Shown one piece after another: positions 3 through 26,645 of a DNA stretch of 64,000 nt. Origin of the DNA: Trypanosoma brucei (taxonomy: Eukaryota); NCBI GenBank assembly GCA_000002445.1, contig CP000068.1:768001-832000 (forward strand), in the 5' to 3' direction. The translations under genes were made by a program, and so were the position numbers. Positions within the stretch are counted from its first letter, which is position 1. The number at the start of each line of letters is the position of its first letter. Below the pieces are notes generated by a model. That model saw nothing but the letters and a program-made list of their open reading frames with translations. It searched no databases and had not been told where the DNA came from.

Positions 3-3000
3 CGGGAAGGGAATGGCGAACTTATTTGTCACGGTGACCAGCGTATGCGTGACACACTTTTTGTTAGAAAAGACGAAAGTGGTGCTGAGTTGCAAACGCG
101 TTTCGATTGTGTGTTCGACCGCGACGCAACGCAGGCAAATATATTTGATACAATTGGGCCAGAAGTGCTCAACACACTCTTCAGTGGTTATAATGCCTCA
201 ATATTTGCATACGGCCAAACGGGAAGTGGGAAAACATATACCATGGAGGGGGATCACAGTAAACCGGAGCGCCTTGGAGTCACCCCACGGCTGGTACGCG
301 CTATATTTGAGCGGTTCAAGGGAAACCCAGATATTAGTCGGCCCGTATGTGAGGTGAGTTTGGTTCAAATATACCAGGAGAAAATACAGGATCTGCTAGC
401 AGGGCAGAAGCAGCTGGAAATACACATGGATCGTACAGGGCAGTATATAGCACGTGACGCTACGTGGACACGTGTCCGTAGTTTAGAAGAGAGCATGAAA
501 CTGTACAAAAAGGCTTCGGAGATGAGGACGACATCATCAACAGATATGAATCTTGTCTCATCCAGAAGTCACATGATCATGATGATGAAGCTCCAGTGGG
601 ATGAGCCGTCACTGCCGGGTTCCCACGCACAGCTGAACCTTGTTGATCTTGCGGGGTCAGAGCGTATAGCACTTTCCGGTGCCACTGGGGATCTCATGAA
701 GGAGGCTATACATATTAATAAATCTCTCAGTGCACTTGGGAATGTTGTGTCTAAACTGGTAGAGCAAGCCAAGCATAAGGGTCGTCGTGTCCATATTCCA
801 TATAAGGACAGTAAACTTACATACTTGTTGCAGTCCAGTATAGGTGGATCAAACCTCATTCATTTCATACTGGCGGTTTCATGCAGTGCGCTCTGGCGTT
901 CAGAAACCAACTCAACGATTGAATTTGGCAAGAGAGCGCTGCAACTAGTGTTGCGGCCGGTACGAAATGCTATTGATTACACGCGCTTGGCCGAGATGGA
1001 GGAAATGATTGAGCGTATGCGGTCTCACATTGCCAGTTTGGAGGAAGCCCTGCGTGACAAGAGTAGTGAGGCCGCGGAGTTCCTTAAATTAAAACAAATT
1101 CCTCAAGATGGCGATGAAGGGCCCGGGAAGTTCAGTGACAGTAGAGGTCGGAGACAACGAAAGAAGCTCAAGATGCAGACGGAACTGGCACGTATTATGG
1201 CGAATTTGCCCGAGACGTTTGATGACCTCACTTCTCACTGCGTTTTATTCCCTGAGTCGAAGGGAAGTTTTCGTGAGTTGGGGGGTTTGCAGCACCTCGT
1301 TCATTTCGTTGATCGCTCCGCCTCGACGTTTTACCGCTCCAACGCCGCGCAGACGATCGCAAGTGTCTTAGATGACAAGGGACGTGACATGTTTGTAGAA
1401 ATTGATGGTGTTGAGGCATTAACACGGCTCTTGCATATAAAGGAGGAGCGCTGTAAAGAGGCTGCTTGCGTAGCACTGGAGGCGGTATGCCGTGGTTCGT
1501 TGAAGAATAAACAAAGCCTCTCCCCAGCTGTTTACACAGAACTGGTCGACTTAATATACAGTTACCCGAATCAGCAGGTTCAAGAGGCAGCCTGTACCGC
1601 TGTCGCTACCATTGTCGACCTGTACCCGGAGGCACGCCGCACATTTGAGCGACTTGATATCGTTCCGAAACTACTTGAAACAATTCGGAACACGCCGGAG
1701 GAGGTGGTAAATCTTATAAAGTCTGCAACTAACTGTATTGGTCGCCTGTCCCATGGAGACCCCGAAATGCAGGATGTGATAGCGTCTTTCGGAGGTATTG
1801 ACCTACTTATTGATGTCTTATTCAGTAACGCAGGGACGCGCGATCATCAGGTACCCATACTCGCCTCTTACGCACTCGTGAATCTGTGCTGCAGCAATGA
1901 GCAAAATCTCGATATCGCACAGGACCATCCACGTTACGGTGAGGTTAAATTCCGTCTTCTGGAGGGTCTCGCAAGAGCATTTGGTGTTAACACGGCACGT
2001 GAAGGATTTGGTCGAGCGACAGCGCATGAAACGGGTTCACCGTTCCCGTACTATGGTGTGACAATTGTGGACAAATGGTCATTCACTTCATCTGGTGGCC
2101 GGCCGATCTTTTCTACCTTCATGGATAACCCACAGTTTTATCTCTATGTGAGCAGACCCACTGACGTCGCGTTTATGATTCAGGACGTTTTGTATGAAAC
2201 TCGTATGCTCAAAAAGAAGAAGAATAATACGGTTTATATGGGGCTTGCCCTCTTTGAAGGAGATCCCGAACTCGCCAAAGCGGGACTGAAGCAGGTAGAT
2301 TTCCACGGCCGCATGGTTGAAATTGGAAAATACACATCAAATTGTGAAAACGTCCTCCACTGCACCTTGCAGCCAAGTGAAGTACCGTACGTTGTCGTTC
2401 CCTTCACAAGCCAGCGAGGACGCCAAACAGAATTCGCACTATCCGCATTTGCAGATAGTTCCATTGAATTAACTGCAGTTCCTGAGCAGGTAGGCTGGGT
2501 CCGCACGGTGTTAGATGGTTGTTGGACAGAATTCACTGGCCGCGGTGGTGATGGATTCGATTGGCGATGCAACCCGCAAATTTCTATTCAACCGAAAGAA
2601 AACTGCCGCTGCGTGTTTGTGCTTTCGTACCTCTCACTTGATCAGCAGCGGGCCTATTCACGTGACGAGGAGGCGGAGGAGCAAAATACACGCCCCAGAT
2701 TGTACGGCCGGCTTTTCACTAACAGTAACGGTGAGAAACGGTACCTAAAGGCACTTGTTCCTCTCCCGCAGAAGTCCACATTTGTTGCTAGCAACAGTTT
2801 TGCAAGCAACAGCTATATCACAACTTCGGCTAACCTCACAGCCGGTGAATCATACACTTACATACCCTTCACAGAAACGCCTTACGAGGACACGTGGCGC
2901 CTCTCTGTTTATTGCGATACGGACGATGTCGCTATCGCCCCCATTAATGGAAGCAAGTCCGAATGGTATTGCACAACTTCTTCGGGCGAATGGGCGGGTA

Positions 3001-3953
3001 AACCCCTTTCTATTCAGTTAGACACAAAGGGAAGGATGGTTGCGGTTGCCAGCAGCCCAGGTTCGTTTCTCCGCGTGCGGCTTTTCAATGCCAAGGGAAA
3101 GAAGCTAGAGGGTATTGATGCGTACTGGAATGCGGAGGCGTCTGTGGAATACAAAAGTCAGGGAGCCGTTACCGTGCAAGTAGAGGGAATGGTACGTACG
3201 GAAAATGGCCAGGAACCGGCACGTGGCCTGAAAGTAGATGTGTTCATTTTTACGGAAAACAAGTGTACAGTCCAACATGTGGACTTTCCCGCTTCGCCAA
3301 GCAGTTTATTACATCCGACAAAAACAACACCTATAGAGCTTCTGCGCTACCCGGTTGAGGTGGTCGAAAACGACGCCCCCTTCGCCACTTTGGATCAGAC
3401 GGATGACGATGAGGAAGACGCAACCTGCGATGAAGATGATAGTTATGAAAGCAAGGAATTGGAGTTGAAAGAAACCCTTGAGAGGCGCAATACCGAGAAT
3501 GCCAAACTGTTGGACCGTATTGCCGAGCAACAGCGTGAACTGCAGGAACTGCGAATGCTTCAGAATATGCTACCCTCTAGTGCAACACATAATGAGAGTC
3601 CTGGTAGCGGTAGTCCTAACGACACGAGGATAAACAGTGGAATGAATCAAGTGAATTCAAAGAAGGATAACATATCGAGGAAAGGTGATAGGAATGGTGC
3701 CGCTGCCTCTTCAAATGGTTCTCCCGTGAGTTCGAAAGCCATATCCCCGTCTCATTTCCCACAAAGTGGTGGTGGAGGCGTTTCGCGGTCCATGAGGGAG
3801 GCAATTGAGCGATCACTAGTGACACTCAACCGCCTTGAGTGTCACACCGAACCTCCAAAAGCTGGGGAATGGGGTGCTATACGCAACGAGGTGAAGGAGC
3901 TCCGTAAGCTACTCGGCCTTGCCCTTAGCCAGGAAAGTCTTGTTAGAACTTAA
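3..3953 (+). CDS. Kinesin motor protein with central armadillo-like repeats, two calpain domain-III-like modules and a C-terminal coiled coil. The 5' end is cut off by the window edge.
   Basis: The reading frame is open from position 3 with no upstream stop, so the N-terminus lies outside the window. Kinesin motifs seen in the translation: FDxVF (RFDCVFDRD), P-loop GQTGSGKTYTMEG, switch I SSRSH, switch II DLAGSE. ARM/HEAT-like repeats follow (GGLQHLVHFVD..., GGIDLLIDVLFSN...). Two NPQ motifs (MDNPQFYLYVSRP and WRCNPQISIQP) resemble the start of calpain domain III. The C-terminus is a coiled coil (LELKETLERRNTENAKLLDRIAEQQRELQELRMLQ). This architecture matches what I recall for the T. brucei orphan kinesin KIN-E; that comparison is from memory, not a database hit. 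Confidence 0.85.
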   Translation, partial: REGNGELICHGDQRMRDTLFVRKDESGAELQTRFDCVFDRDATQANIFDTIGPEVLNTLFSGYNASIFAYGQTGSGKTYTMEGDHSKPERLGVTPRLVRAIFERFKGNPDISRPVCEVSLVQIYQEKIQDLLAGQKQLEIHMDRTGQYIARDATWTRVRSLEESMKLYKKASEMRTTSSTDMNLVSSRSHMIMMMKLQWDEPSLPGSHAQLNLVDLAGSERIALSGATGDLMKEAIHINKSLSALGNVVSKLVEQAKHKGRRVHIPYKDSKLTYLLQSSIGGSNLIHFILAVSCSALWRSETNSTIEFGKRALQLVLRPVRNAIDYTRLAEMEEMIERMRSHIASLEEALRDKSSEAAEFLKLKQIPQDGDEGPGKFSDSRGRRQRKKLKMQTELARIMANLPETFDDLTSHCVLFPESKGSFRELGGLQHLVHFVDRSASTFYRSNAAQTIASVLDDKGRDMFVEIDGVEALTRLLHIKEERCKEAACVALEAVCRGSLKNKQSLSPAVYTELVDLIYSYPNQQVQEAACTAVATIVDLYPEARRTFERLDIVPKLLETIRNTPEEVVNLIKSATNCIGRLSHGDPEMQDVIASFGGIDLLIDVLFSNAGTRDHQVPILASYALVNLCCSNEQNLDIAQDHPRYGEVKFRLLEGLARAFGVNTAREGFGRATAHETGSPFPYYGVTIVDKWSFTSSGGRPIFSTFMDNPQFYLYVSRPTDVAFMIQDVLYETRMLKKKKNNTVYMGLALFEGDPELAKAGLKQVDFHGRMVEIGKYTSNCENVLHCTLQPSEVPYVVVPFTSQRGRQTEFALSAFADSSIELTAVPEQVGWVRTVLDGCWTEFTGRGGDGFDWRCNPQISIQPKENCRCVFVLSYLSLDQQRAYSRDEEAEEQNTRPRLYGRLFTNSNGEKRYLKALVPLPQKSTFVASNSFASNSYITTSANLTAGESYTYIPFTETPYEDTWRLSVYCDTDDVAIAPINGSKSEWYCTTSSGEWAGKPLSIQLDTKGRMVAVASSPGSFLRVRLFNAKGKKLEGIDAYWNAEASVEYKSQGAVTVQVEGMVRTENGQEPARGLKVDVFIFTENKCTVQHVDFPASPSSLLHPTKTTPIELLRYPVEVVENDAPFATLDQTDDDEEDATCDEDDSYESKELELKETLERRNTENAKLLDRIAEQQRELQELRMLQNMLPSSATHNESPGSGSPNDTRINSGMNQVNSKKDNISRKGDRNGAAASSNGSPVSSKAISPSHFPQSGGGGVSRSMREAIERSLVTLNRLECHTEPPKAGEWGAIRNEVKELRKLLGLALSQESLVRT

Positions 3954-5398: not shown

Positions 5399-8206
5399 AT
5401 GAGACACTGCCATATTATTCGGTATGATTCATTTCGGTCTGTCCGTAACGACATCGGCCATCTCTTTTCACCCTTCAAGGACGCTAAATCTCTTCAGGAA
5501 GCAATGCGTCGCCACATAATAAAGGTTCCATCGCGTTATGCAGATACACCGCGTCAGCGCATGAGTTGGTTCCGTGGTAGCATTAGTCTCATTCTCAGCG
5601 AGGCCGCCCGGCGGGGCAGTCATGCCGTGTCTCGAGCAACAATGGAATTGCTGGTGGAACAGTCAGAACAGCTACAACTGAGGGTTGTGGATCCGATGTG
5701 GGTGAAAAACGCATTCGCGACGTGCACGAATGCTGATGAAATGCGTGTGATCGAGCAAATAATTCAAAAATTCCATGATAAGCAGTGCACTGATGGTGAA
5801 ACAAAACGAGGTTTATCGCAACAACACCAGAAGGATGGTGCTCCACTACCACCAGCATTATCAAATAGTACCGGTGGCTTTGATAGTGCGGAAGGCAGTG
5901 TTTCTTTACTTGGCGACTATTCGGGGTTTGCCCTGGAGTCTCTTAGTAGGCAACGTGTGAGCAGTGTGACTGCGCCAAATACTTCGTTCTCTCGTTACTT
6001 CATTCGCCAAGGCCTCGTTGCGGATGAAGCGGAACTAATGGAACTATTTAGGGCTATGATTGGGCGTAGACCCGCAGCTTTTCGGGTACACACCTCCCAG
6101 ATGTACGGAGCCGCCACGGCGGAAATCATAAGTGGACGCCCTGGAATTGAACCACTACACTGGCTTCCAAAGGAGTGCGCTGCCTTTGTTATGCACGACT
6201 CCCCGAACGTACCGCATTCTGTGCTTCTTGCTAACCGTCAGTTGCTACATACCCTCGCCAGTGAACACCTCATTTCATTTCAGTCAACTTCAAGTATGTT
6301 GCCTGTGCTTCTTCTTGATCCCCGACCTGGAGACGCAGTTTTAGATCTCTGTGCGTCACCAGGGAACAAAACATCCCTGGTGCTTGACTACGTATCTTCA
6401 CTCAGATCCACTTCGTTACCTTCATCGAACCCACACTTTCATCACGGGTGCATTGTCGCGAACGACGTCTCACCCCCTCGGAGCCGTCAGCTGGCGCAGA
6501 GGTTACGTAATAGCAGCCCCACCGTTGCCGTCACTCAGTTTCATGGCCAGTCTTTGCCACTTGAAACTGGAGCTTCTGGAGGCAATAAATACAACAAGAT
6601 TCTCGTAGACGCACCGTGCAGTGGTGAGGGTCGCATGCAACGTGACGCCATGTCGTGGCGCATGTGGCATCCACTACGAGGATTGCAATTTATGCAAACG
6701 CAACTACGGTTGCTCCGTCGTGCGGTGAATTTGTGTTCGGTTGGGGGACACATTGTGTACTCAACGTGCACACTTAACCCTCTTGAGGATGAAGCAGTAA
6801 TCGCGGCAGTTTTACGTGATGGTGCAGTGGAGTTGGTGGAGCCTCCACGGGAATTACGGGAGAAGAGCGGTTGGCGGTTCAGCCGTGGGTTACGGCGCTG
6901 GGTTGTACCTTCTCGCGCCGGGGGGTTTCTGAATACGTTAGCTGAAGCGGAGGCAAAGGGGGAAGGCAACCCGACTACTTTGACAGATCTCTTCCCTTAC
7001 GAAGGGAACGAGAAAATTCAGTCGGCACTTGAGTCTTGCTGCTTGAGGGTGATGCCGCATTGTAATGGAGGGGCCGAAGGCTTTTTCGTTGCATTGCTGA
7101 GGAAATTACCTGTCAACCTGAATCAACTTTCGCCCACCAACCACGCCAGCAGATACGGGACCGTCAAAGTGGAAGGTACCGAGGATCCCGTGAGGGGAAA
7201 TTCATCCACAGGCGCACTTACATGTGGATCTGTATTACACACCTACGGTGTGGCCAAGCTGGCGGCGGGAAACATGTTGTTGCAAAGGCTCCTTGGCGGT
7301 TTTTTTAGCAACAATACTTGTCAGCTGGAGTTCTTTTTCTCCAAATGCAATCTTTGTGCTGCTTGGAAGGAGGGTCATGGACTCATCATCTTATCTAACG
7401 CTACGTGGTCCCATCTCGATGCAACTCCTTCTTCATTTTGCTCCAAGTCAGAGTTGTTGGAACTTGGAACAACCGTTATCGAGGCAGAAACCGGAAATTT
7501 AACTGCAGTGGGCGCATATCTTTTGCGTCCTTACGCAACATCACGTGTGCTGAAGCTCCCACTACTGCAGTTGCAATGGCTTTTGTCTAATCAGGTGTTG
7601 AAGATAAACGAGCATCAGATGGATCCAACTGTTTTGGCGCGGCGACTGGTTGCGGGTGTGGGCGGCACATCAAGTGACATTAACATGCAACAACATCAAT
7701 TAACGGTGCCTTGGGTAAGAGATATAATGAATGTTGTTGGGAAACAAGAGGGAAATTTCATCGTCTGCTACTCCCCGTCGTCGGGAGACGTTTGTGACAG
7801 CGGAAGTTTTCACAAGAGTAATGATGCCTGCGGGCTACTTTCTATCAGCATTCCCGTCATTGTGCGAAGGACACCTTCAGTAGAACTGCATTTGTCATTA
7901 TTTCATGATGCACGGCAACTCTGTAGGGCTGTGATTGGTCGTGTCCTTTCCCACAGGAAAAGAGCTGATTCACCGGATGGGGAGAAGAGCGCTCTACAAC
8001 TTGGTTCTCGTTTTAACGTGAGCGCAACTCTTGGTATTACGGACCTTGAGGGACGGCGGCTAACACCGCAAGGGCAGAAACGCAAGCTTTACAGCCCAAA
8101 CCTTTCAATATACCCCGTCACAGGGAGCGGCATGGTCGCCAGTACAGCTATCGAAGGAAATAGTGAGGGTGATCGCACAAAGGAAAAGGATTACTTCATC
8201 CTGTAG
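5399..8206 (+). CDS. NOL1/NOP2/Sun-family RNA (cytosine-5)-methyltransferase with a long C-terminal extension
   Basis: SAM-MTase motif I is VLDLCASPGNKT, motif IV is KILVDAPCSGEGR (catalytic Cys), and motif VI is GGHIVYSTCTLNPLEDEAVI (second Cys). The ORF track starts at a GTG at 5381; the first in-frame ATG is 5399 (MRHCH...). A polypyrimidine tract with AG lies upstream at about 5121-5197. Confidence 0.85.
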   Translation: MRHCHIIRYDSFRSVRNDIGHLFSPFKDAKSLQEAMRRHIIKVPSRYADTPRQRMSWFRGSISLILSEAARRGSHAVSRATMELLVEQSEQLQLRVVDPMWVKNAFATCTNADEMRVIEQIIQKFHDKQCTDGETKRGLSQQHQKDGAPLPPALSNSTGGFDSAEGSVSLLGDYSGFALESLSRQRVSSVTAPNTSFSRYFIRQGLVADEAELMELFRAMIGRRPAAFRVHTSQMYGAATAEIISGRPGIEPLHWLPKECAAFVMHDSPNVPHSVLLANRQLLHTLASEHLISFQSTSSMLPVLLLDPRPGDAVLDLCASPGNKTSLVLDYVSSLRSTSLPSSNPHFHHGCIVANDVSPPRSRQLAQRLRNSSPTVAVTQFHGQSLPLETGASGGNKYNKILVDAPCSGEGRMQRDAMSWRMWHPLRGLQFMQTQLRLLRRAVNLCSVGGHIVYSTCTLNPLEDEAVIAAVLRDGAVELVEPPRELREKSGWRFSRGLRRWVVPSRAGGFLNTLAEAEAKGEGNPTTLTDLFPYEGNEKIQSALESCCLRVMPHCNGGAEGFFVALLRKLPVNLNQLSPTNHASRYGTVKVEGTEDPVRGNSSTGALTCGSVLHTYGVAKLAAGNMLLQRLLGGFFSNNTCQLEFFFSKCNLCAAWKEGHGLIILSNATWSHLDATPSSFCSKSELLELGTTVIEAETGNLTAVGAYLLRPYATSRVLKLPLLQLQWLLSNQVLKINEHQMDPTVLARRLVAGVGGTSSDINMQQHQLTVPWVRDIMNVVGKQEGNFIVCYSPSSGDVCDSGSFHKSNDACGLLSISIPVIVRRTPSVELHLSLFHDARQLCRAVIGRVLSHRKRADSPDGEKSALQLGSRFNVSATLGITDLEGRRLTPQGQKRKLYSPNLSIYPVTGSGMVASTAIEGNSEGDRTKEKDYFIL

Positions 8207-8680
8207 AGTCACGTAAAGTGCCATTTTTCTCTACACGCTTGTGATTTTTCGAAAACCTAAATAAACAATAACTTATTGGTGGATTCCAAGACTTCTTCAA
8301 CTATTTGACTGACCCATCTGTTTCCCACTTTATTGATATATATATATATATATATTTATTTATATTTATTTATCTGCTTCTATGTCTCGCACTCCAAATA
8401 AAATTCTGTACAGTACACAAGGGAATCTTATGGAACTAGCAAACCCCGATCCATGTTTTATTCACATGCACTGTAGACACTAGTTTCACAAAGAGACGCA
8501 CAATACCTGCAACAATGTGTAGGGATCAAACGACAAAGCAGTCTGTCATTCCCACTCACAAAGGATAAGTGGAAAAGAGAGAATGAACAAAAAAAAAATA
8601 GTGTGCAGAGGTTAAACAGCAATTATTAAAAATACGAATCTCGTTAGGAATCACCCTTATTATATGAACGTAAATATATA

Positions 8681-8791
8681 AGTCATTCCTGTGGAAAGTA
8701 CTTCTTACTGAGAATCCGAAAAGGCCATTGAGGGGAAGTGCCCTGTGGAGACACTATTGCCATGTACCGAAATCGGTTACAGTGTCATGGT
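8681..8791 (+). repeat. 111-bp direct repeat, copy A, in the 5' flank of the MATE gene
   Basis: agtcattcctgtggaaagtacttcttactgagaatccgaaaaggccattgaggggaagtgccctgtggagacactattgccatgtaccgaaatcggttacagtgtcatggt. It is identical to copy B apart from 3 mismatches. Confidence 0.9.
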
Positions 8792-9027
8792 GTTGGGTGG
8801 TGCCAAGTCGTTAAAAGTTTCATGCACTTGTGCTTTTGCCCTTTACTTTTCCATGTATGCTGTAGTATCATAGGCTGAAGGCGCTAGTTAGTGCAAAGGT
8901 GAAGGGAGGCGGTTGGTGTTGTTGCGGCACCGACATATCTCATAAGGAGGTGTGTGTCGCCTCTTAGATTGGGGCGGTGAGGTAAGAAAACTGAGGGCCA
9001 CGGAAAGAGACAGGAATACAAGGACGA

Positions 9028-10599
9028 ATGCAGACACTTTCAGCCTCTTTTGCGGCTGCTGCTGGCGTGTCGCATGAAAGTCTTCCTAGGCACGTTCCCA
9101 CCCTCACGTTGCTGAAGCGCATACTTGTCTTGACTGTGAAGTTAAGCATTGCTCAGGTTGCTCAATTTTCGCTTGGAATAACTTTGCTTGCTGTTGTTGG
9201 GAAAATTGGTGTGAGGGAGTTGGGTGGCGCTTCGCTTGCGAACGGGCTAGTGAACGCCACAGTGTTTGCATTTGGTGCCGGTTTCTCTGGAGCCCTTGAA
9301 ACTAAGCTTTCCCATACATTTAGCCGTAATCCAAAGGATAAGATGTACGGTGTCTACACTCTGCGGATGCTCATAATGCTCCTCATCACATTCGTACTAC
9401 TTTCTCCGGCTATCCTTTTCTTGGACAGAGTGCTGGTGGCCATGGGACAAGATCCAGCTGTGATTGACTTCACGGGTGAGTTCTGTCGCTTGTCGATTTG
9501 GGGTAGTTTCTTCGCCATGTTGCTAGAGCTACTGCGTCGCTACTTCGCGTGCCAGCACCTTTCCACTTCCTTCTCTGTGAGTCTTGTTATTGGCGCCGTT
9601 GTGTACCCCTTTCTCCTTATTGGACTGGTTAAAGTGATGGGATTCTCTGGTGTTGCTGTTGGGTGGTCTCTTCTCATGATATGCACTACCACTGGGTTGG
9701 TGCTTTATGTTGTTGTGACTAAAAAGTATCTCGCTACCTGGGGCGGTATTGAGGATGCAATCTACCGTAATTGGGGACCCTTACTTAAGCTTGGTCTTTC
9801 ATCAATGGCTATGATGCTCAGTGAGTGGGTCGCACTGGAGATAAACAGCATCTGCGCTGGCTTTGGCACGAAAGAGGAATTAGCTGCTTTTGGCATTACT
9901 TATCAAATGTCTGGTATTTGTTGGGCCATCACCTCTGGAACATTTATTGCTGCTTCTGTGTTAGTTGGTGGAGCAATTGGTGAGGAGAGACCGATGTTTG
10001 CTCGCCGTCTCGCCATTTTGTGTTTGGGGACTTCCGTCGCTATTTCGTTATGCAATGTTGCCATTCTTCTGGCCACTCGGAACCTATACCCGCGTATTTT
10101 TACCGACGACGAGAAGGTGGTGGAGATTGTTGGTTCCTTAATGAACTATGTGTTTGTTTATCATATTTTCGATGCGTTTCAGAGCTGCATGATGGGCGTG
10201 CTGCGTGGGTGTGGAATGCAGAAGCAAGGCGCCATTGTTATCTGTCTTGTCTACTCCGTCGTTGGTGTGCCACTGGGTCTTCTACTTTTCTTTTTCACTG
10301 GTTTTGGTATACAGGCGTTGTGGCTCGGTCCCCTTGTTGGTGCCGCTGTAGTTGGCTTTCCAACGTATCTGTACATGATGATGCGTTACATTAAGTGGGA
10401 TACGCTGAAACCATCCGTGGAAGTATATGATGGTGAGTGGGAGGAGAGTGAGGAGAGCGGTGTTTTGGAGGATGTGGCAAAGGTGAATGAACCCATTGGC
10501 GCCGAAGGTGATGTAATAACTACTTTGTCCAGTAATGCCCCTACACGTGTTACGACCAACTCTACCGAGCAGGAAGATGTGAGTCGGCGACACCAGTAA
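9028..10599 (+). CDS. MATE (multidrug and toxic compound extrusion) family efflux transporter
   Basis: About 12 hydrophobic segments. The motif VLRGCGMQKQGAIVICLVYSVVGVPLGLLLFF closely matches the conserved eukaryotic MATE/SLC47 TM10-11 region (RG.G.QK.GAI.N...YY..GLP.G). It starts at ATG. Confidence 0.85.
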   Translation: MQTLSASFAAAAGVSHESLPRHVPTLTLLKRILVLTVKLSIAQVAQFSLGITLLAVVGKIGVRELGGASLANGLVNATVFAFGAGFSGALETKLSHTFSRNPKDKMYGVYTLRMLIMLLITFVLLSPAILFLDRVLVAMGQDPAVIDFTGEFCRLSIWGSFFAMLLELLRRYFACQHLSTSFSVSLVIGAVVYPFLLIGLVKVMGFSGVAVGWSLLMICTTTGLVLYVVVTKKYLATWGGIEDAIYRNWGPLLKLGLSSMAMMLSEWVALEINSICAGFGTKEELAAFGITYQMSGICWAITSGTFIAASVLVGGAIGEERPMFARRLAILCLGTSVAISLCNVAILLATRNLYPRIFTDDEKVVEIVGSLMNYVFVYHIFDAFQSCMMGVLRGCGMQKQGAIVICLVYSVVGVPLGLLLFFFTGFGIQALWLGPLVGAAVVGFPTYLYMMMRYIKWDTLKPSVEVYDGEWEESEESGVLEDVAKVNEPIGAEGDVITTLSSNAPTRVTTNSTEQEDVSRRHQ

Positions 10600-11737
10600 G
10601 GAGCGTATGTGCAGAACCTTCACATTATTTAGTCTAAAGCAGCCTCATGTCGGCGTACTGTTGCTACCGTTGGTGTTAACTGTACAGATCCGGACGACGA
10701 TGGAGTAGTGGTTTAGGAAGTTTTGGTCGTAATGTGAAAGGATTCGAGAAGGTAATCTGAGTAAATAGTGGATTGAGTCTGAAATGTGGCAGCTACTGGG
10801 GTTGTTAACGGAAGTACGTAATATTCTCCGACTCATGGAGCCATATTCAATGGTGAGTTATTATTAATTATTTTTTAGTAGTAGTTGTTATGTTGTGGGC
10901 AAGGAATTTATCGTTATCGCACATCATATATTTTTTACTATTTTTTAAAAATTTCTTTTCTTAGTATGTGGCAGGCAGCCCTTGTTAATTAAGGTGCCTG
11001 TTGCTGCATTGGTGTCTTCCTTTCTTACAGTCACTTACTCTTTGCAGTCTCCGTAGACGTTTTGTGAGATTTTTTGATTGCTGTGGTAATTGTAGCCGAC
11101 ACAATTCTTACGTTACCACATACATTTACACTACCAGGGTCATTACTTTATTTTCTCCCCCAATTTGCCACTGCTGTATTCATTTTTTTTTCTTCTAACT
11201 CTGATCTGATAGTGATAGACATAAGCCACCAGGAGTTGATATTTTCCTCTATGACCCCACCCATTTCGGCATACAAAGTGTATGTGGTTGAATGGGATGT
11301 GTGATGCGATGTGTCAGTCACGATTGTAGTGCTCGACGTTAAGAGCGCATCAGGTGAATCCGGAAGTGATGATGCTACCCCGTATATTCCAATAATATAA
11401 TTTGTTATTCTTTTTAGTTATGAGATAGTTTTTCTAACATTAGATGGTGCCTGCAGCGTGACGCGGCAACTGCTGTACTGTTTTTGTATGTTGGCAAGGT
11501 TGTTATAAAGGGTATGTCCCAGGGTGGGGGTATGCTTGTATTGGTGTAAATGACTCTCAATAACTGAGACGCAAAAGTGGAATGTAATTCACGACCCATC
11601 GCAGTTCCATATTGAATTTGTTGCTTTTACTACTGTCGTACCGACGCAGTGTTGTTGTCGTAGTGAGTCATTGTTGCATGTGGTTGAATACTTTCATATA
11701 ATAACCACTGTGATGATGTGGTGCCCCTAAGGTTAAG

Positions 11738-11848
11738 AGTCATTGCTGTGGAAAGTACTTCTTACTGAGAATCCGAAAAGGCCATTGAGGGGAATTGCCC
11801 TGTGGAGACACTATTGCCATGTACTGAAATCGGTTACAGTGTCATGGT
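11738..11848 (+). repeat. 111-bp direct repeat, copy B, in the 5' flank of the CEP164-like gene
   Basis: Same sequence as 8681-8791 with 3 substitutions (c>g, g>t, c>t). It lies 3057 bp downstream of copy A in the same orientation. Confidence 0.9.
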
Positions 11849-11900
11849 ACTGTATGAATCTCTTTACGTTGTTATTTCGAGTTTGTTGGAAACAATGAAG

Positions 11901-11935
11901 ACTTTTTTTTGTTGTGGTTGGTTTTTTAACGGAAG
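11901..11935 (+). promoter_or_regulatory. Polypyrimidine tract plus AG upstream of the CEP164-like gene
   Basis: actttttttttgttgtggttggttttttaacggaag, about 35 nt before the ATG at 11968. Confidence 0.45.
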
Positions 11936-11967
11936 GTGTCGAGCGTTTAGGTTGATAGAAGGGCCAC

Positions 11968-14900
11968 ATGGCTGTCATCCCTAAGGTGGGTGAGGTGTTC
12001 CGCGGTGAGGACGGAGTTATTTCTGTGGTACTTCCCGATACTTGTGATCCGGATCATGAACCCACAGAGGAGGAACTGCATGAATATGCGGAGTTTATTG
12101 GAATAGATGTTAAAGAAGAGAAACATCTTTTGTGGATTGCACGCGAGGGGCTGCAGACCCCGCTTCCTGAGGAGTGGAAGGCGTGTCGTACTGGTGACGA
12201 AGAACCGTATTATTTTAACTTTCGCACTGGTGAAAGTAGCTGGGACCATCCTCTCGACGATATGTTCAGGCAGAAGGTCGATTTAGAGAGGACGAAAGCC
12301 AATGCTTCTGCATTAATTAGTGGCAGTAAGCATGGTAGTACAAATATGAAGATACGCTCCGCGTCGTTATCGTATTCCTCAGCGTCGTCATCCGCTTCTT
12401 CCGACGATGCAGACTCTAGTGCAGAAACCGCTGCTAACCTTCGTCGACAAGGGCATGTGTCCCGACTCGAAAAGGGATCTGGTGGTAATGCCCATTCCAT
12501 TAATCATGTCAGTGCTATGACGGCAAGACCGGTCCCTCTAACCTCTACTGTTGACGCATCGAGTCACTCCTTTAGCACTCAGGGGTCAAGGGATGGCGCA
12601 CTGGTGGGTGAAGCTGCCGGAAAATTAGGTGCCTTGCGGACTCCTGCTCCTGTTCAGCGTGCAAAACTGGATATGTCTAGTTTGTTAGAACCTGGAAAGG
12701 GCGGTCTTCCGTCCACAGCCATTGGTGGTGGAAGTGGTAGAGGCAACAGCGGGAAAGGTAACTTTGCAATAGGATCAAAGGGAAAGTGTCCTGAAGGTGT
12801 TCGAGACATGGAAGCGTCAATCCGGCAACGTGTAGATGAAGAAAACGACGCACGGCGTCGTACAATGAGAATACAGCAGGAGCGGCAACTTGCCGAAGAA
12901 AGACTTAGGTTGGAAGCCGAAATTCGGATGGTTAGTGCCGAATGTGAGAAGGAATTAAACGCGGAACTACAGCAAGCCAACGAATCTGAGGAGCAATTGC
13001 AACTTGAGAAAAGTAAAATGGATGCAGTCTTGTCGGCAAAACAGCGCGAGTATGATGAGGCACGCAAGCAGGTAACGGCACTGGGTTTACTACTACAGCG
13101 GGAAGAGGCAAAGCTGGAGGGTGAAATGCAGAGACGCATAGCGGAGGCGAAGGAGAGAATAAGTGGCAGCGGTGACGATAAGTGTAAGAAAGCGAAGGAG
13201 GCCGCTGCTGCCAAACTTGAAAAAGAGAAAGAAGAACGGAGGAAAGCGCATACCAAACGGTTAGAGGAAGAGAGCAAACAGCTGGCAGCTAACACTCAGT
13301 CAACCGTGGGATCTCTGAAAAAGGCCCTTGAGGAGAAACGTTTGTCAGCTGAAAAACAACTTAAGGCTAAGCTCTCAGAGTTTTCTCCAGCACCCCCCGT
13401 TAGCACTGCAGGCGAAAGTCATCCTGATATTAAGGAGGCCCAGTCTTCGTTAGAACTTGCGGTGAAGCGAGCAACTGCTGAAGCTGCGGCAACTACGTCA
13501 GCTTTACGTCACCGATATGAAAACGAATTGGAGGAGCTTAAATCAGAAAAGAAACGAGCTCTAAGCACTGTGAAAGGTAAGGTGACATCCAAAAATGAAC
13601 CTGTCGAAGACACAATGCAGAACTCTACGCCTCACCCTTCCTTGGAAGAGGAGGAGAAAAGGTTGAAGGAGGCACTAGAAGAAAAGGCTGCACGTTATGT
13701 TGATGAAACACAGCGGCTTTTATCATTTATGCGGAGCGAGTTGAATGGGACGAATTCAACGTCGTTAAATACAACCGAGGGGGACAATATAACTCTTTCG
13801 TCAGGTGCTGAGCTCGCAGAAGAGCAACCAAACTACGATCGCACATGGAAGCAGCTAGACGAGCAGCATGCGAGAACGATGGATCGCATTCGTAGCGCTC
13901 ATGAGCAGACCTTGAGAGAAAAGCATCTATTCGATCCCAGAAAGTCATTGGATTTCGCTGAAAAATTGAAGGTACTGCAGAGGAAGTGGTTGGCAGCCCA
14001 CCCAAAACCAAAATTTTCCGTAGGGGACTCTTGGTCTGCGCGTGAAGGGACCGATACATATGAGTCAAATAGTCCTCAGGTGGATACAAAGTTACTGCAG
14101 GAAAGAGTTGATGCTGCTGTTAAAGCTGCGACGGAAGAGGCCCGGTGTAAACACGGAAATCAACTACAGGCAGTTCAAGAGCTACTGGAAAAAGAAAATC
14201 GCAAGGTTAGTGAAGCGCACCGCGCTGAGAAGATTAAAGAAATGAAGGCTCTGGTTAATCAATACCTCGAGGTATGTTTGGCCGAGCGTTCGAAAGAGAT
14301 AGATTTTTCGACAGCTTCGGTTGGTGACCCCTACAAGAGTAATACGACGAGGACGGGTAATGAATGTCACCTGCAAACGTCACCACAGTTACCTGAAGGC
14401 ATGGTGTCATTAGAGGAAGCCCAAAGACGTGAGGAAGAGGTGCATCGTCAGCTTCAAGACCGTGTAAAAGCGTTGCAAGATGCCACGAAGCTTTCTCAGA
14501 CGGAGCTTCGCCGGCAGCAGGGACTGTTGCACACGAAATCCCTGTACAGTTGCCAGCGTCCACCAATCGTACCGATGCCAGCATCTCCATCCGTCGCGAA
14601 CGACGCTTTTCACACACCCCGGTTTCCTCTTAATCAGAAGCAACCCCAGTCAGCCTTCACAACCCCGATGCTAAACAACACATTGTCCACCATACCTTCA
14701 ATGTATACGACAAACGGTAGCGAGAAGCCGAATGCAACACCGTACTCGTTCTTGCTTGATATTTGTGGTGGACGGCAGCAGAAACCAGTATTGAAGAGCC
14801 AGGGTGGCAATTTAGATGGCGAACATATTTTGCGTAATACTGTGGAGTTCGCTTGTTCATCTGAGCAGACAGGTCACGATTTGGAACAGCGCTTTCAGCA

Positions 14901-15501
14901 CGCCAGATTGCTGCTACTAAAGAAAAAGGATGAACTGTTGGCAAGGCGAGCTTGCATGGAACGTTCCCGTACGTTGTGGTTGCGTGACATGGAAAAATGC
15001 ACTACAACGGGGGAGAGGAGTCATGCGCGTTTGCTCCGTCAAATAAAGGTTTCACTGGAGGAGCAAGCTCGGAAATTAAACCAAGAAGTTTTGGAGGTCC
15101 GTCTGGCGTTCGCCTCGCTTCGCGATTCTGAGCGAAAGTTTCGCAGTGCTGCCGGTCGCGAGGAGGCAACAAATGGAAGGGAAACCGCTATTATGCCCAA
15201 TTCATTAGGTGGTAACAACATGTCTGTTAATTCTACCACAGCTCCACTGTCAAAGAGCTCACAGCATATGATTGAGTTATTAGACGGTATTTTAACTAAA
15301 GCGGCTAAGTTGGAAAGTCATGTGTCCCCATTGCCCGACAAGTACAAATTGATGGGTAGCAAAAGTGTTGAGGGGAAACAACATCACTCACATGCGAGAC
15401 GCTCCCACTCAACGACTCGTCACGTGAGCCGAGCGGCTTCTGCCGAGGGAAAATCTGGTGGTGTTGCACGGTGGCTTGATGAACAGCAACTTGCCTCATG
15501 A
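11968..15501 (+). CDS. CEP164-like protein: N-terminal WW domain followed by long coiled-coil and Ser-rich regions (basal body / transition-fibre type)
   Basis: The N-terminus reads EEELHEYAEFIGIDVKEEKHLLWIAREGLQTPLPEEWKACRTGDEEPYYFNFRTGESSWDHPLDD. This is a WW domain (W...YYFN..T.ES.WDHP) in the same sequence context as the CEP164 N-terminus as I recall it. It is followed by more than 700 aa of E/K/A/L-rich coiled coil. Confidence 0.75.
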   Translation: MAVIPKVGEVFRGEDGVISVVLPDTCDPDHEPTEEELHEYAEFIGIDVKEEKHLLWIAREGLQTPLPEEWKACRTGDEEPYYFNFRTGESSWDHPLDDMFRQKVDLERTKANASALISGSKHGSTNMKIRSASLSYSSASSSASSDDADSSAETAANLRRQGHVSRLEKGSGGNAHSINHVSAMTARPVPLTSTVDASSHSFSTQGSRDGALVGEAAGKLGALRTPAPVQRAKLDMSSLLEPGKGGLPSTAIGGGSGRGNSGKGNFAIGSKGKCPEGVRDMEASIRQRVDEENDARRRTMRIQQERQLAEERLRLEAEIRMVSAECEKELNAELQQANESEEQLQLEKSKMDAVLSAKQREYDEARKQVTALGLLLQREEAKLEGEMQRRIAEAKERISGSGDDKCKKAKEAAAAKLEKEKEERRKAHTKRLEEESKQLAANTQSTVGSLKKALEEKRLSAEKQLKAKLSEFSPAPPVSTAGESHPDIKEAQSSLELAVKRATAEAAATTSALRHRYENELEELKSEKKRALSTVKGKVTSKNEPVEDTMQNSTPHPSLEEEEKRLKEALEEKAARYVDETQRLLSFMRSELNGTNSTSLNTTEGDNITLSSGAELAEEQPNYDRTWKQLDEQHARTMDRIRSAHEQTLREKHLFDPRKSLDFAEKLKVLQRKWLAAHPKPKFSVGDSWSAREGTDTYESNSPQVDTKLLQERVDAAVKAATEEARCKHGNQLQAVQELLEKENRKVSEAHRAEKIKEMKALVNQYLEVCLAERSKEIDFSTASVGDPYKSNTTRTGNECHLQTSPQLPEGMVSLEEAQRREEEVHRQLQDRVKALQDATKLSQTELRRQQGLLHTKSLYSCQRPPIVPMPASPSVANDAFHTPRFPLNQKQPQSAFTTPMLNNTLSTIPSMYTTNGSEKPNATPYSFLLDICGGRQQKPVLKSQGGNLDGEHILRNTVEFACSSEQTGHDLEQRFQHARLLLLKKKDELLARRACMERSRTLWLRDMEKCTTTGERSHARLLRQIKVSLEEQARKLNQEVLEVRLAFASLRDSERKFRSAAGREEATNGRETAIMPNSLGGNNMSVNSTTAPLSKSSQHMIELLDGILTKAAKLESHVSPLPDKYKLMGSKSVEGKQHHSHARRSHSTTRHVSRAASAEGKSGGVARWLDEQQLAS

Positions 15502-17901: not shown

Positions 17902-20900
17902 ATGGGCGTGCCAAAGTTCGCCTCTTGGTTGCGTAATAAATATCCTGCAATTGTAACTAAGAACTGCCCCTCGTCTGTCCACGGACTGTACATTGACCTT
18001 AACGGCATTATTCATCCATGCTGCCATAATGATTCGGACACCGCAATTGCACTCCTTCCGGAAGAGGAAAAACTGGAATGTATTTGCAGTGAGTTGGAGC
18101 TGCTTGTACAAACTGTGCAGCCGAAGGAGGTAATGTACATCGCCATCGATGGTGTTGCGCCACGGGCGAAGATGAACCAGCAACGTGCCCGCCGTTATAT
18201 GGGCCGCGCAGCACCCGCTCAAACTGGGGAAGTTGCCTCCACTCACATGCCAAATAAAAGTGGGATGGCCATTGTAGAGGAGGTGGTGCGTGAGTTTACG
18301 TCAACAGAGATGGCGCAAGCCAATGATGACCTCGATGAAGTACGGCAAACGCTATTAGAGGATCCACTCTATAGTGGTGCGTTGCATAATGAAGGGGAAG
18401 AAAGAGGCTGGGGATGCCTTGAACGACGGGGACGGGGTTAATTCTTTCTGTGTAAGGAGCACAGATGATGATTATGAGAGTACGCACGAAAATCGTTACG
18501 TGGAATCAAACCAGGTGGCTGACGATGTGTTCGGTCACCGTGGCGAAGTTATTGTCGATGACCCTACCGCTTTCGAATTTGATAGCAACTGCATCAGCCC
18601 AGGTACCGACTTCATGGCAAAAGTGTCTGACGCTGTGCTTAACATGCTGAATGAGAAAATGTCTGGGAATGACCCCACCTGGACACGGTTGTGCGTGATA
18701 TTTTCTGGGTCAAATACACCAGGGGAGGGGGAACATAAAATCATCGATTTTTTGCGCACGCAGTCTTCACTGGCACAGTTTGGCGGCAAGGCCAATCACG
18801 TAATTGTTGGATTAGATGCGGATTTGATTTTCTTGGCGCTATCTTTGCACATCACGCAGGTGTTTATTCTACGTGATACGACAAGAAATCCCTATAAGAG
18901 GCGAGCTGTTGCTCGACAGCAGCAGCGGGAGAGGCGGTCACGTAGGAAACGTAACTTTATCGACGACACATGCATCATTTCGTTGAATCCCAGTTATATT
19001 GATGAGGAGGAGAGCGACGGCGTAATTGGAGTACCCGTGTGTGAAAGCAGCGAAAACTCAAGTAGCGACACCGATAATGAATCCCCCATTGAGAGCAGAG
19101 AAGCCCACGTCGCAACAGTACCTAACACTGGATTCGAGTATTTTGATATCAGCGTGGTGGGTGGGTCCCTCATCTCAGAGGTGAGTGCTTTGTGTGATAT
19201 TAAGAAGTTTACTCCCGCGACGGAGTCGGCATTCGACAAGAAAACGCTCGTTTCCTCGGCAGGTTATTATTTCTTTGGTCAACCGAACCATATCGAGGGT
19301 GGCACCTTGCCGTCTTCTACAGAATGTGGATCACCGAAAGGACGACGTTCTAAAAGGGTTTCAAAGAAAACTGAGGCAGAAAGAAGTTGGAAGAATTTTA
19401 GGCCGTGCTCGTCGCCGGCGAACAGCAAAATTATTGACGATATCATTGTACTTTCGATATTGCTTGGTAACGACTTCCTTCCGCACGCGCCAAGCGCGTT
19501 TTCAGGAGAAAGTGCCCTCGACAACTTACTGGAGTTATACGTTTCTGAAGTGCTACCATACGGTTTCTTAACGAAAGGGCCTCATGAAATCAACCTACCA
19601 CAACTTCAACGTCTGTTTGAAGCATATGCAAAGATTGAGGCAGTTAAGTTCCGGCGGTTTCTCTTATTCAAAAGCACAAATGAAGAAAACAACAACAGCG
19701 GCGCCGAATTTAGAAAAGGAAGCAACAATGACAACGTAACCGTTGCTGATGTAGCAGTTGCTCTTCACTCAACCATAGATGATAGGTGGCGCGACACGTA
19801 CTTGAAGTCAACAGGCCTCTCTAACAGCGTGCAAGAGGCGTGCGAAAAGTATGTTGAAGGAGTTTGTTTTGTGTGGCGTTACTACACAACAACCACTACC
19901 GACTCCGATTGGTCGTGGTATTATCCTTTTTACCATGCTCCACCAGTAATAGACCTTGCAATGTACTTAAAGGAAGCCAACATCAAAAGGATGCCGCTTC
20001 CTGTGGTGAAGCCCACACCACCGGACACATTAGTGCAATTGCTTTCTATTTTACCGCCTACAAGTCATGCGCTTTTACCCATGGTGCTGGGGGAGGTGAT
20101 GGTTCGCTCACCGCAACAGGCGGAGCTCGAGAGTACATTTCCCTTGCAGTGGCATGTGGATTACCACGATAGCAACGTAGTACATCTTGCCACCGTAATG
20201 CTGCCGTTCGCTGATATGGATGTGCTTCAGCAAGTCGTTGACGCTGCTTGGCCACAACTCACGGAGGAGGAAAGATGGCGAACGCAAAAGTTGGACTTCC
20301 ACCTTGTAATTACCTCAAACAAGACATCTTTCGTGCCGAAGGGAGATTTGAGGAAGTTGTCCGACGCACTCGATACCATATTGAGACGAGTTCCTTCCCG
20401 CGAAGGGGTGGAGATACGACAGCTCTATGATGTTCCTTTGGAGCGATATCGGCCGCGAACGTATTCGTGTACGGTGGAAGTCCCAAGGCTTTCATATGGT
20501 GCGGATGGTCAAGTGATCAAGCGGCAACGTCGCCATCGCCACTCAGGCCAACTAAAAGGGAATGGAGAAGGTGTGATTGAAGGGAAGAAGTCAAATTCTC
20601 GCGTTACTGTTGTGAACAAAGGTCCATGTTTTGCCACGTTTTTGCTGTTCCTTGCATGTGCCTCTGTTTTCACTGCCGTTGTATTGTTGCCATGCTCTTT
20701 AGCGTCCTTTATGCAAGTATTGTCGATAAATATTTGTGCTATATTGATTAGCTTTGTGCTTGGCATCTCCGTCCATGACCCCTCCAGTGGCTGTGGCATG
20801 AGCCGCAATAACATTCGGCAAACATTCGTTGATTGGCTATGCACGGAGTGCCTGAGCCTTAACTTTTCATCGAGAACAAGGTGTTTCGTTTGTCGCGCGC

Positions 20901-26507: not shown

Positions 26508-26558
26508 GGGGGGGAGGAGAGGCGGCCCGCAAATATTAACGTTACCCCCCCCCCCCCC
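26508..26558. repeat. G7 homopolymer ... C14 homopolymer pair (partial inverted repeat), preceded by (TG)n
   Basis: cgggggggaggagaggcggcccgcaaatattaacgttacccccccccccccc. Confidence 0.8.

Positions 26559-26644: not shown

Positions 26645-26645
<1 letters not shown>

What the first reader, a model, noticed from the sequence alone, without database searches (positions are those of the whole stretch)
8681..11848. 111-bp near-identical direct repeats in the 5' flanks of two unrelated neighbouring genes
Copy A (8681-8791) lies 237 nt before the MATE ATG. Copy B (11738-11848) lies 120 nt before the CEP164-like ATG. They share the same orientation and differ at 3 of 111 positions. The flanking sequence is unrelated on both sides, so this is not a tandem gene duplication. 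A discrete element placed in the likely 5' UTR or trans-splice region of two different genes could be one of several things:
- a small dispersed repeat (SINE-like);
- a shared cis-regulatory or UTR element;
- an embedded small RNA.
Its ~97% identity implies either recent copying or constraint. The sequence contains short ORF-like potential, but nothing I can name.
Basis: seen in the sequence. Interest (0 to 1): 0.5.

Follow-up and report, generated by a model that had tools for sequence, protein, structure and literature searches.

The report
Boundary repeat of MATE tandem duplication
The two 111-bp repeats are real, but they are simply the matching ends of a 3-kb segment carrying a transporter gene that is single-copy in this Trypanosoma brucei strain and tandemly duplicated in a sister subspecies, a copy-number difference already published, so the finding is ordinary.

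Summary
Copy A (8681-8791) and copy B (11738-11848) are direct repeats that differ at 3 of 111 positions. Their borders are sharp, and they are the only copies in the window.

The window is T. b. brucei TREU927 chromosome 5, bases 768001-832000. The repeats bracket the MATE gene Tb927.5.2430.

At the same locus:
- T. b. gambiense has two tandem MATE genes and three copies of the element.
- T. equiperdum has one gene and two copies.
- T. vivax has one gene and no copies.
- Two short-read contigs carry the tandem junction (unit tail, element, unit head).

So the number of elements is always the number of genes plus one. The element is the partial terminal repeat of a 3.06-kb tandem unit, and the only homology available for unequal crossing-over.

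The one-versus-two copy difference is already published (Jackson 2010, Table 1b). Published splice-site maps (Kolev 2010) place both copies 75 and 88 nt upstream of the splice acceptors, so they are not in 5'UTRs. Instead, two putative non-coding RNAs, Tb5.NT.60 and Tb5.NT.61, end inside the element, both within its CCGAAAAGG stretch.

There is no Rfam hit and no significant fold. The SINE features that could be tested were absent.

The finding is real and explained, and of low interest.

The parts
8681..8791 (+). Element copy A (E_A): first 111 nt of the MATE repeat unit
   Evidence: Orthologous copies are L002 9654-9764 and L003 9655-9764.
11738..11848 (+). Element copy B (E_B): partial terminal repeat just after the end of the unit
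   Evidence: Orthologous copies are L002 15801-15909 and L003 12747-12856.
8681..11737 (+). The 3057-bp repeat unit (element, MATE 5' flank, CDS and 3' region). It is present once here and twice in tandem in T. b. gambiense (3094 and 3053 bp).
   Evidence: Jackson 2010, Table 1b: Tb927.5.2430, unit of 3029 bp, 2 copies in T. b. gambiense.
9028..10599 (+). MATE transporter gene Tb927.5.2430
   Evidence: Pfam MatE, E = 7.7e-31. 100% identical to XP_844917 of TREU927.
8414..8718 (+). Published putative non-coding transcript Tb5.NT.60, trans-spliced and polyadenylated. Its 3' end lies at position 38 of E_A.
   Evidence: Kolev 2010, Tables S7, S11 and S12. The coordinate offset of 768000 was checked.
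11213..11778 (+). Published putative non-coding transcript Tb5.NT.61. Its 3' end lies at position 41 of E_B.
   Evidence: Kolev 2010, Tables S7, S11 and S12.
8864..8865 (+). AG of the major MATE splice acceptor (first exon base 8866; 5'UTR 162 nt), preceded by a polypyrimidine tract at about 8832-8855
   Evidence: Kolev 2010, Table S12; sequence check.
11934..11935 (+). AG of the Tb927.5.2440 splice acceptor (first exon base 11936; 5'UTR 32 nt)
   Evidence: Kolev 2010, Table S12; sequence check.
8819..8855 (+). Stretch shortly downstream of E_A. In T. b. gambiense its perfect inverted copy (40 nt there) sits directly after the last element copy.
   Evidence: 40/40 identical within gambiense and 37/37 against the window, on the minus strand. 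Alignment.
11849..11853 (+). ACTGT: what remains in this strain at the position of that inverted segment. T. equiperdum keeps 15 nt of it and one T. b. gambiense haplotype keeps all 40.
11968..15501 (+). Downstream gene Tb927.5.2440 (WW domain, CEP164-like), outside the repeat unit
   Evidence: Pfam WW. The gene identifier appears in basal-body and transition-fibre papers.

Best explanation
The 111-bp element is the overlap, or partial terminal repeat, of a 3.06-kb tandem-duplication unit that carries the MATE transporter gene Tb927.5.2430.

The locus has the form E-(MATE-E)n. In this strain (TREU927) and in T. equiperdum n = 1. In T. b. gambiense n = 2. The two element copies are the only homology between the upstream and downstream flanks of the gene. 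Unequal (non-allelic) homologous recombination between them, or between whole units, therefore adds or removes one unit.

Shown here:
- the rule that elements number one more than genes;
- a junction with chimeric flanks;
- the copy-number difference between subspecies;
- variants of the element shared within a genome.

Inferred:
- that recombination at the element is the mechanism;
- which state is ancestral.

The element has no demonstrated function of its own. Because each copy lies about 150 nt upstream of the next gene's splice acceptor, the coupled polyadenylation of the upstream transcript falls inside it. Two published non-coding RNAs or long 3'UTR isoforms therefore end within the same CCGAAAAGG stretch of the element, 3 nt apart.
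For: **Synteny and copy counts**
- T. b. gambiense L002 has two MATE genes and element copies at 9654, 12748 and 15801, spaced 3094 and 3053 nt.
- T. equiperdum L003 has one gene and two copies, 3092 nt apart.
- T. vivax L004 has the same gene order and one MATE gene. It has no flanking repeat of 25 nt or more and no recognisable element.

**The tandem junction**
- The middle gambiense copy has the unit tail upstream and the unit head downstream.
- The same junction occurs in independent short-read contigs L005 and L006.

**Unit types**
- The units fall into two types. gambiense unit 1 matches the equiperdum unit (99.4%). gambiense unit 2 matches the window unit (98.0%). 54 sites support this split.

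**Homogenisation within genomes**
- Both equiperdum copies share a 1-nt deletion.
- gambiense copies 1 and 2 share two substitutions.

**Literature**
- Jackson 2010, Table 1b: Tb927.5.2430 is single in T. b. brucei and a tandem pair in T. b. gambiense.
- Ubeda 2014: direct repeats in trypanosomatids mediate tandem duplication, circle formation and deletion, with rearrangement products detected by PCR in T. brucei.

**Transcript ends**
- The gaps from poly(A) site to splice acceptor are 148 and 158 nt. The published median is 142 nt, with an interquartile range of 123-178 nt.
Against: - A single simple tandem duplication gives equal numbers of elements and genes. The extra terminal copy therefore needs a further event that I cannot reconstruct with certainty. 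The inverted 40-nt segment after the last copy in gambiense points to a complex rearrangement.
- The order of events is unresolved: an ancestral pair that collapsed twice, or a single copy that was duplicated in gambiense.
- The genome-wide copy number of the element could not be measured with these tools.
- At 111 nt the element is shorter than the 200-nt cutoff used in the published survey of recombinogenic repeats.
- No recombination event was observed directly.
Confidence: 0.85

Rival explanations
1. The element is a small dispersed repeat (SINE-like or a retroposon fragment) with further copies elsewhere in the T. brucei genome. Two copies happened to land on either side of MATE and later served as recombination substrates.
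For: The borders are sharp and the flanks unrelated. The genome-wide copy number could not be tested here.
Against: - There are only two copies in 64 kb, and no diverged copies.
- Every copy in the related loci sits at a unit border.
- There is no A-rich tail and no target-site duplication at the borders.
- There is no tRNA-like part.
- The element is absent from the syntenic T. vivax locus.
Confidence: 0.06
2. The element is kept by selection as a cis-acting RNA-processing or 3'-end module. On this view it is a shared poly(A) site and 3'-terminal sequence that co-regulates Tb5.NT.60, Tb5.NT.61 and the long 3'UTR isoforms of Tb927.5.2420 and Tb927.5.2430.
For: - Both non-coding transcripts end within the same CCGAAAAGG stretch of the element, at positions 38 and 41.
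- Both upstream genes are listed as having an alternative 3'UTR.
- Both copies lie at similar distances from the next splice acceptor (75 and 88 nt).
Against: - Poly(A) site choice in trypanosomes is set by distance from the downstream polypyrimidine tract and splice site. The observed 148 and 158 nt fall within the usual 123-178 nt, so no element-specific signal is needed.
- The element's divergence of 2-4% is about that of the neutral flanking DNA between strains.
- The element is absent in T. vivax.
- There is no significant RNA fold.
Confidence: 0.08
3. The element encodes a small structured RNA, such as a snoRNA or another Pol III or processed RNA.
For: A GTGATGA (C-box-like) motif lies about 20 nt upstream of copy B, and a CTGA lies inside the element.
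Against: - There is no Rfam match at the gathering threshold in the window, and none in or near the element at E up to 10.
- Fold z-scores are -0.87, -0.22, +0.30 and +0.64 for the two copies on both strands.
- The C-box-like motif lies outside the repeat and is missing at copy A.
- The published transcripts covering the element are ordinary trans-spliced, polyadenylated RNAs.
Confidence: 0.02
4. The repeat is an assembly artefact: a mis-join, or a collapsed tandem array in the reference.
For: Jackson 2010 warns that copy numbers in assembled tandem arrays can be arbitrary. A true two-copy array in TREU927 collapsed to one copy would look the same as what is seen here.
Against: - The same E-MATE-E structure appears in an independent T. 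equiperdum assembly.
- The borders are base-for-base the same in three assemblies.
- Even a collapsed array would leave the main interpretation unchanged, with the element as the unit border.
Confidence: 0.02

Closest known systems
Subspecies-specific segmental (tandem) duplications in T. brucei: the Tb927.5.2430 entry in Table 1b of Jackson et al. 2010 (PMC2854126)
   Same: This is the same locus and the same event. The membrane transporter gene is single in T. b. brucei 927 and a tandem pair in T. b. gambiense. The published unit length is 3029 bp; I measure 3053-3094 bp.
   Different: The parts of the paper I read (its section 17 with Table 1, and search excerpts) do not describe the following:
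- the 111-bp terminal partial repeat;
- the rule that elements number one more than genes;
- the inverted 40-nt junction segment;
- the single-copy state in T. equiperdum.
Low-copy intergenic direct repeats that serve as platforms for amplification, tandem duplication and deletion in trypanosomatids (Ubeda et al. 2014, PMC4028189; FRDg/FRDm2 and AQP2/3 in T. brucei, Wargnies et al. 2021, PMC8065229)
   Same: - Direct repeats flank a gene.
- Copy-number variants have junctions at the repeat.
- The published model of unequal sister-chromatid exchange fits.
- A transporter gene lies between the repeats.
   Different: - The element is 111 nt, below the 200-nt cutoff of that survey, so it would not be among the 773 T. 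brucei repeats listed there.
- No recombination product was observed experimentally here.
- The repeat may itself be a leftover of the array rather than an independent pre-existing sequence.
UTR-internal and novel non-coding transcripts of T. brucei (Kolev et al. 2010, PMC2936537: Tb5.NT.60 and Tb5.NT.61)
   Same: The first 38-41 nt of each element copy are the 3' ends of these two published trans-spliced, polyadenylated transcripts.
   Different: The transcripts are otherwise unrelated in sequence. The element is not a transcript in its own right, and two thirds of it lie downstream of the poly(A) sites.
Trypanosomatid short retroposons (RIME, ingi, SIDER)
   Same: They are short repeated sequences found in intergenic or UTR regions.
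   Different: - The element has no A-tail and no target-site duplication.
- It shows no dispersed copies in the sequence available.
- Its copies are confined to the borders of one tandem unit.
- I did not compare it directly with RIME, ingi or SIDER consensus sequences.

Membership tests
Boundary or terminal partial repeat of a tandem duplication unit (substrate for unequal homologous recombination) | Copies lie in direct orientation on both sides of the duplicated segment | tested here: met
   Both copies are on the + strand, 3057 nt apart, bracketing MATE.
Boundary or terminal partial repeat of a tandem duplication unit (substrate for unequal homologous recombination) | In genomes with n copies of the segment there are n+1 copies of the repeat, spaced one unit apart | tested here: met
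   gambiense has 2 genes and 3 copies. equiperdum and the window each have 1 gene and 2 copies.
Boundary or terminal partial repeat of a tandem duplication unit (substrate for unequal homologous recombination) | The internal junction copy has the unit tail upstream and the unit head downstream | tested here: met
   Seen in the middle gambiense copy (gamb_2) in alignment A2. Logan contigs L005 and L006 show window 11212-11848 joined to 8681-11163.
Boundary or terminal partial repeat of a tandem duplication unit (substrate for unequal homologous recombination) | Recombination products (circle, duplication or deletion junctions) are detectable in cell populations | not testable with these tools
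   This needs junction PCR or deep long-read sequencing, as in Ubeda 2014, Figure S8.
Repeated sequences as defined by Ubeda 2014 (85% identity or more, 200-2500 nt, intergenic) | Length of 200 to 2500 nt | tested here: not met
   The element is 111 nt with sharp borders. The cutoff is quoted.
SINE or retroposon-type dispersed repeat | Many dispersed copies at unrelated loci | tested here: inconclusive
   No further copy was found in the 64-kb window or in the related loci outside the unit borders. The whole T. brucei genome cannot be searched with these tools. Scans of metagenome and prokaryote collections gave 0 hits, which says nothing about T. brucei.
SINE or retroposon-type dispersed repeat | 3' A-rich tail, flanking target-site duplication, or a tRNA-derived promoter part | tested here: not met
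   The borders read ...CATGGT followed by G or A, with no A-run and no matching short flanking duplications. ARAGORN finds nothing.
Small structured RNA gene (snoRNA and similar) | A match to a curated covariance model, or a fold more stable than shuffled sequence | tested here: not met
   There are 0 Rfam matches at gathering score, and none on the element at E up to 10. Fold z-scores run from -0.87 to +0.64.
Shared 5'UTR element | The element lies downstream of the trans-splice acceptor site, inside the mature 5'UTR | tested here: not met
   The published major splice sites are at window 8866 and 11936. The copies end at 8791 and 11848.
Part of trans-spliced, polyadenylated non-coding transcripts (Kolev 2010 NT set) | Overlap with the mapped ends of a listed novel transcript | tested here: met
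   Tb5.NT.60 is window 8414-8718 and Tb5.NT.61 is 11213-11778. [quoted passage not shown] Each covers the first 38-41 nt of one copy.

The most novel reading that the evidence does not exclude
The element pair could be a maintained 'dosage switch'. On this reading, a short recombination cassette lets T. brucei populations reversibly gain or lose MATE efflux-transporter copies under toxin or drug pressure. It would do so by tandem duplication, collapse or excision as a circle.

Two observations are compatible with ongoing exchange:
- the mosaic unit types;
- the two junction haplotypes in T. b. gambiense.

In addition, the shared 3' terminus might tie the two non-coding RNAs Tb5.NT.60 and Tb5.NT.61 to a common regulator.
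Probability: 0.08. Interest if true: 0.45.

Novelty: new member of a known kind. Interest (0 to 1): 0.14.

Why it matters
The practical value is small.

- **Known variation, new detail.** The analysis explains a repeat that looked puzzling as the footprint of a copy-number polymorphism that is already catalogued. It also pins the breakpoints of that polymorphism to a 111-bp stretch.
- **Use in genotyping.** The breakpoints give primer sites for typing MATE copy number in field isolates.
- **A short recombination substrate.** It is one example in which homology of about 110 bp, below the cutoff of the published repeat survey, marks a recombination-prone segment in T. brucei.
- **A caution for readers of trypanosome sequence.** An element just upstream of a gene is more likely to be in the 3' end of the upstream transcript than in the 5'UTR.

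Nothing here opens a new biological question.

Tried and rejected
- **Rfam.** I scanned the whole window at the gathering threshold and 8300-12100 at E up to 10. Nothing fell on the element. The three weak hits elsewhere are noise.
- **tRNA scan.** ARAGORN found nothing.
- **Folding.** I folded both copies on both strands. None was more stable than shuffled sequence.
- **Hidden larger duplication.** I tested for longer, decayed homology beyond the 111 nt. Local alignment scores of the flanks equal those of shuffles, so this idea was rejected.
- **C/D snoRNA.** A C-box-like motif sits upstream of copy B. It is outside the repeat and absent at copy A, so this was rejected.
- **L001.** This is the end of the T. 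b. gambiense chromosome 5 record. It first looked like a dispersed segmental copy of MATE plus the element. It turned out to be a string of unplaced contigs separated by 100-N gaps, with a low-quality read end. I used it only as a probable second haplotype.
- **T. congolense.** I could not fetch the syntenic locus, because no contig is on record for that protein.
- **Exact look-ups.** Look-ups of the window's own MATE protein and of the TREU927 protein found no contig.
- **Collection scans.** Scans of metagenome and prokaryote collections with a 26-mer from the element gave 0 hits. These collections would not be expected to hold T. brucei DNA, so the result says nothing about copy number in that genome.
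- **Supplements.** The Siegel 2010 supplements are not held, and the Nilsson 2010 supplements do not mention these genes.
Full report

Yes. Window 8681-8791 and 11738-11848 are direct repeats of 111 nt on the + strand. They differ at three positions: element position 7 (C/G), 58 (G/T) and 88 (C/T).

- A search allowing three mismatches finds exactly these two sites, with none expected in shuffled sequence.
- The repeat finder lists them as the only long high-identity family in the 64-kb window. Everything else it reports is low-complexity sequence.
- A low-stringency BLASTN finds no diverged extra copy.
- The borders are sharp. Local alignment of 60-300 nt of flank on either side scores no better than dinucleotide shuffles.

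**2. Where are we?**

The ORF at 9028-10599 is a MatE-family transporter. It is 100% identical to XP_844917 of Trypanosoma brucei brucei TREU927.

Published coordinates for that gene (Tb927.5.2430, CDS 777028-778599 on Tb927_05_v4) give an offset of 768000. I checked this offset directly. Four published trans-splice sites each land on the base right after an AG that is preceded by a pyrimidine tract.

The neighbouring genes are:
- a kinesin (45-3953);
- Tb927.5.2420, an RsmB/F-type methyltransferase-like gene (5399-8206);
- the MATE gene Tb927.5.2430;
- Tb927.5.2440, a WW-domain, CEP164-like basal-body protein (11968-15501);
- an XRN-family gene.

**3. What the element is**

I fetched the syntenic locus from other trypanosomes.

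| Genome | MATE genes at the locus | Element copies | Positions and spacing |
|---|---|---|---|
| This window (TREU927) | 1 | 2 | 8681, 11738; 3057 nt apart |
| T. b. gambiense DAL972 (L002) | 2, in tandem | 3 | 9654, 12748, 15801; 3094 and 3053 nt apart |
| T. equiperdum (L003) | 1 | 2 | 9655, 12747; 3092 nt apart |
| T. vivax (L004) | 1 | 0 | no flanking repeat of 25 nt or more, nothing resembling the element |

T. vivax has the same gene order: kinesin, methyltransferase, MATE, WW protein.

The number of elements is therefore always the number of MATE genes plus one. The spacing equals the repeat-unit length.

The middle gambiense copy has the unit tail upstream and the unit head downstream. 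The same tail-element-head junction appears in two independent short-read contigs, L005 and L006 from ERR7929161 and ERR7929162. These are near-circular permutations of the 3.06-kb unit. The tandem state is therefore not an artefact of one assembly.

The locus has the form E-(MATE-E)n. The window shows the n = 1 state. The 111-bp repeat is the partial terminal repeat of the unit.

The copy-number difference is already in the literature. Jackson et al. 2010, Table 1b, lists Tb927.5.2430 (membrane transporter protein, chromosome 5) as single in T. b. brucei and as two tandem copies with a 3029-bp unit in T. b. gambiense.

**4. History and mechanism**

The units fall into two sequence types. gambiense unit 1 matches the equiperdum unit (99.4%). 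gambiense unit 2 matches the window's unit (98.0%). The two types differ by about 3%, and 54 diagnostic sites support the split.

Two histories fit this pattern:
- An ancestral pair collapsed independently, to type II in TREU927 and to type I in T. equiperdum.
- Two allelic single-copy haplotypes were joined in gambiense by unequal exchange between homologous chromosomes.

In both histories, the element is the only homology between the misaligned flanks of a single-copy locus, so it is the natural crossover site. That recombination happens there is an inference. The model itself is the published one for trypanosomatid direct repeats: tandem duplication by unequal sister-chromatid exchange, circle formation and deletion. 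Rearrangement products have been detected by PCR in T. brucei (Ubeda 2014; see also Wargnies 2021).

There are signs of continuing exchange:
- Both equiperdum copies share a 1-nt deletion.
- gambiense copies 1 and 2 share two substitutions that copy 3 lacks.
- An unplaced gambiense contig within L001 carries a mosaic type-I unit followed by the TREU927-like downstream junction. It is probably the second haplotype.

From my own knowledge, about 100 bp of homology is enough for homologous recombination in T. brucei. PCR-based tagging uses flanks of about 80 nt.

A single simple duplication cannot produce the extra terminal copy, so a further event is needed. A clue is that in gambiense the last element is followed directly by a perfect 40-nt inverted copy of the sequence that lies 26-66 nt downstream of the element in full units. 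The join is at a CATGG microhomology. T. equiperdum retains 15 nt of this inverted piece, and the window retains only ACTGT (11849-11853). This looks like the scar of a complex rearrangement that truncated a former terminal unit, by template switching or by inversion plus deletion. That reading is inference only.

**5. Position relative to RNA processing**

| Feature | Window position | Relation to the element |
|---|---|---|
| Major MATE splice acceptor (5'UTR 162 nt) | 8866 | 75 nt after copy A ends |
| Tb927.5.2440 splice acceptor (5'UTR 32 nt) | 11936 | 88 nt after copy B ends |
| Tb5.NT.60 | 8414-8718 | ends at position 38 of copy A |
| Tb5.NT.61 | 11213-11778 | ends at position 41 of copy B |

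Neither copy is in a 5'UTR.

Tb5.NT.60 and Tb5.NT.61 are listed among 103 putative non-coding, trans-spliced and polyadenylated transcripts. Both end within the same CCGAAAAGG stretch of the element.

Both upstream genes are flagged as having an alternative 3'UTR. The element's first 40 nt or so would therefore also be the end of their long isoforms. The major MATE poly(A) site is much further upstream, at window 11102.

The gaps from poly(A) site to splice acceptor are 148 and 158 nt. These fall inside the published interquartile range of 123-178 nt, with a median of 142 nt. The poly(A) sites are therefore explained by position, through the known coupling of polyadenylation to downstream trans-splicing. 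No signal within the element is needed.

**6. Rivals**

- **Dispersed SINE-like element.** I see no A-tail, no target-site duplication, no tRNA-like part and no copy away from the unit borders. The whole T. brucei genome could not be searched, so this stays formally open at low probability.
- **Small structured RNA.** There are no Rfam matches, and folding energies are no better than shuffles. A C-box-like motif near copy B lies outside the repeat and is absent at copy A.
- **Selected cis-element.** This is not needed. The divergence between copies (2-4%) is similar to that of the surrounding non-coding DNA between strains. The element is also absent in T. vivax.
- **Assembly artefact.** This is excluded for the structure itself by three assemblies and the Logan contigs. 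Whether TREU927 truly has one unit or a collapsed pair needs read depth.

**7. Verdict**

Most of the offered interpretations are not. The element is the border repeat of a known copy-number-variable tandem unit.

Three details are not mentioned in the parts of the two papers I read:
- the n+1 border repeat;
- the inverted junction scar;
- the shared poly(A) site of two catalogued non-coding RNAs.

These are modest additions within a well-known kind of structure. Interest is low.

Noticed in passing
window 17902-21013 (extra A at 18398): The XRN-family exonuclease gene is split into two overlapping ORFs (17902-18441 and 18374-21013), with the XRN_N domain divided between them. Compared with the intact T. 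equiperdum gene, the window has one extra A at 18398. This is a frameshift that may be a reference error or a real pseudogene.
   Followed up: partly
window about 10862-10975 (MATE 3'UTR): This low-complexity patch of about 110 nt does not align between strains or between the two unit types. It accounts for many of the differences between the two types.
   Followed up: partly
L002 15906-15945; window 8819-8855: In T. b. gambiense a perfect 40-nt inverted copy of the MATE polypyrimidine-tract region follows the last element copy. It is progressively deleted in T. equiperdum (15 nt left) and in this window (ACTGT).
   Followed up: yes
L005 1-3005 and L006 1-2925 (Logan, ERR7929161 and ERR7929162): These short-read contigs are near-circular permutations of the 3.06-kb MATE unit. 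That implies tandem copies, or possibly circular ones, in those samples. They carry the gambiense-type element variant GTGCCAAGG. I could not look up what the samples are.
   Followed up: partly
L001 (T. b. gambiense FN554968.1, 1366029-1385737): The end of the gambiense chromosome 5 record is a chain of unplaced contigs separated by 100-N gaps. One of them holds a mosaic type-I MATE unit followed by the TREU927-like downstream junction, and is probably the second haplotype of this locus.
   Followed up: partly
window about 25200-32000: This is a long, very AT-rich stretch crowded with poly(A), poly(T), (TA)n and (TTG)n tracts and no large ORF. I did not examine it.
   Followed up: no
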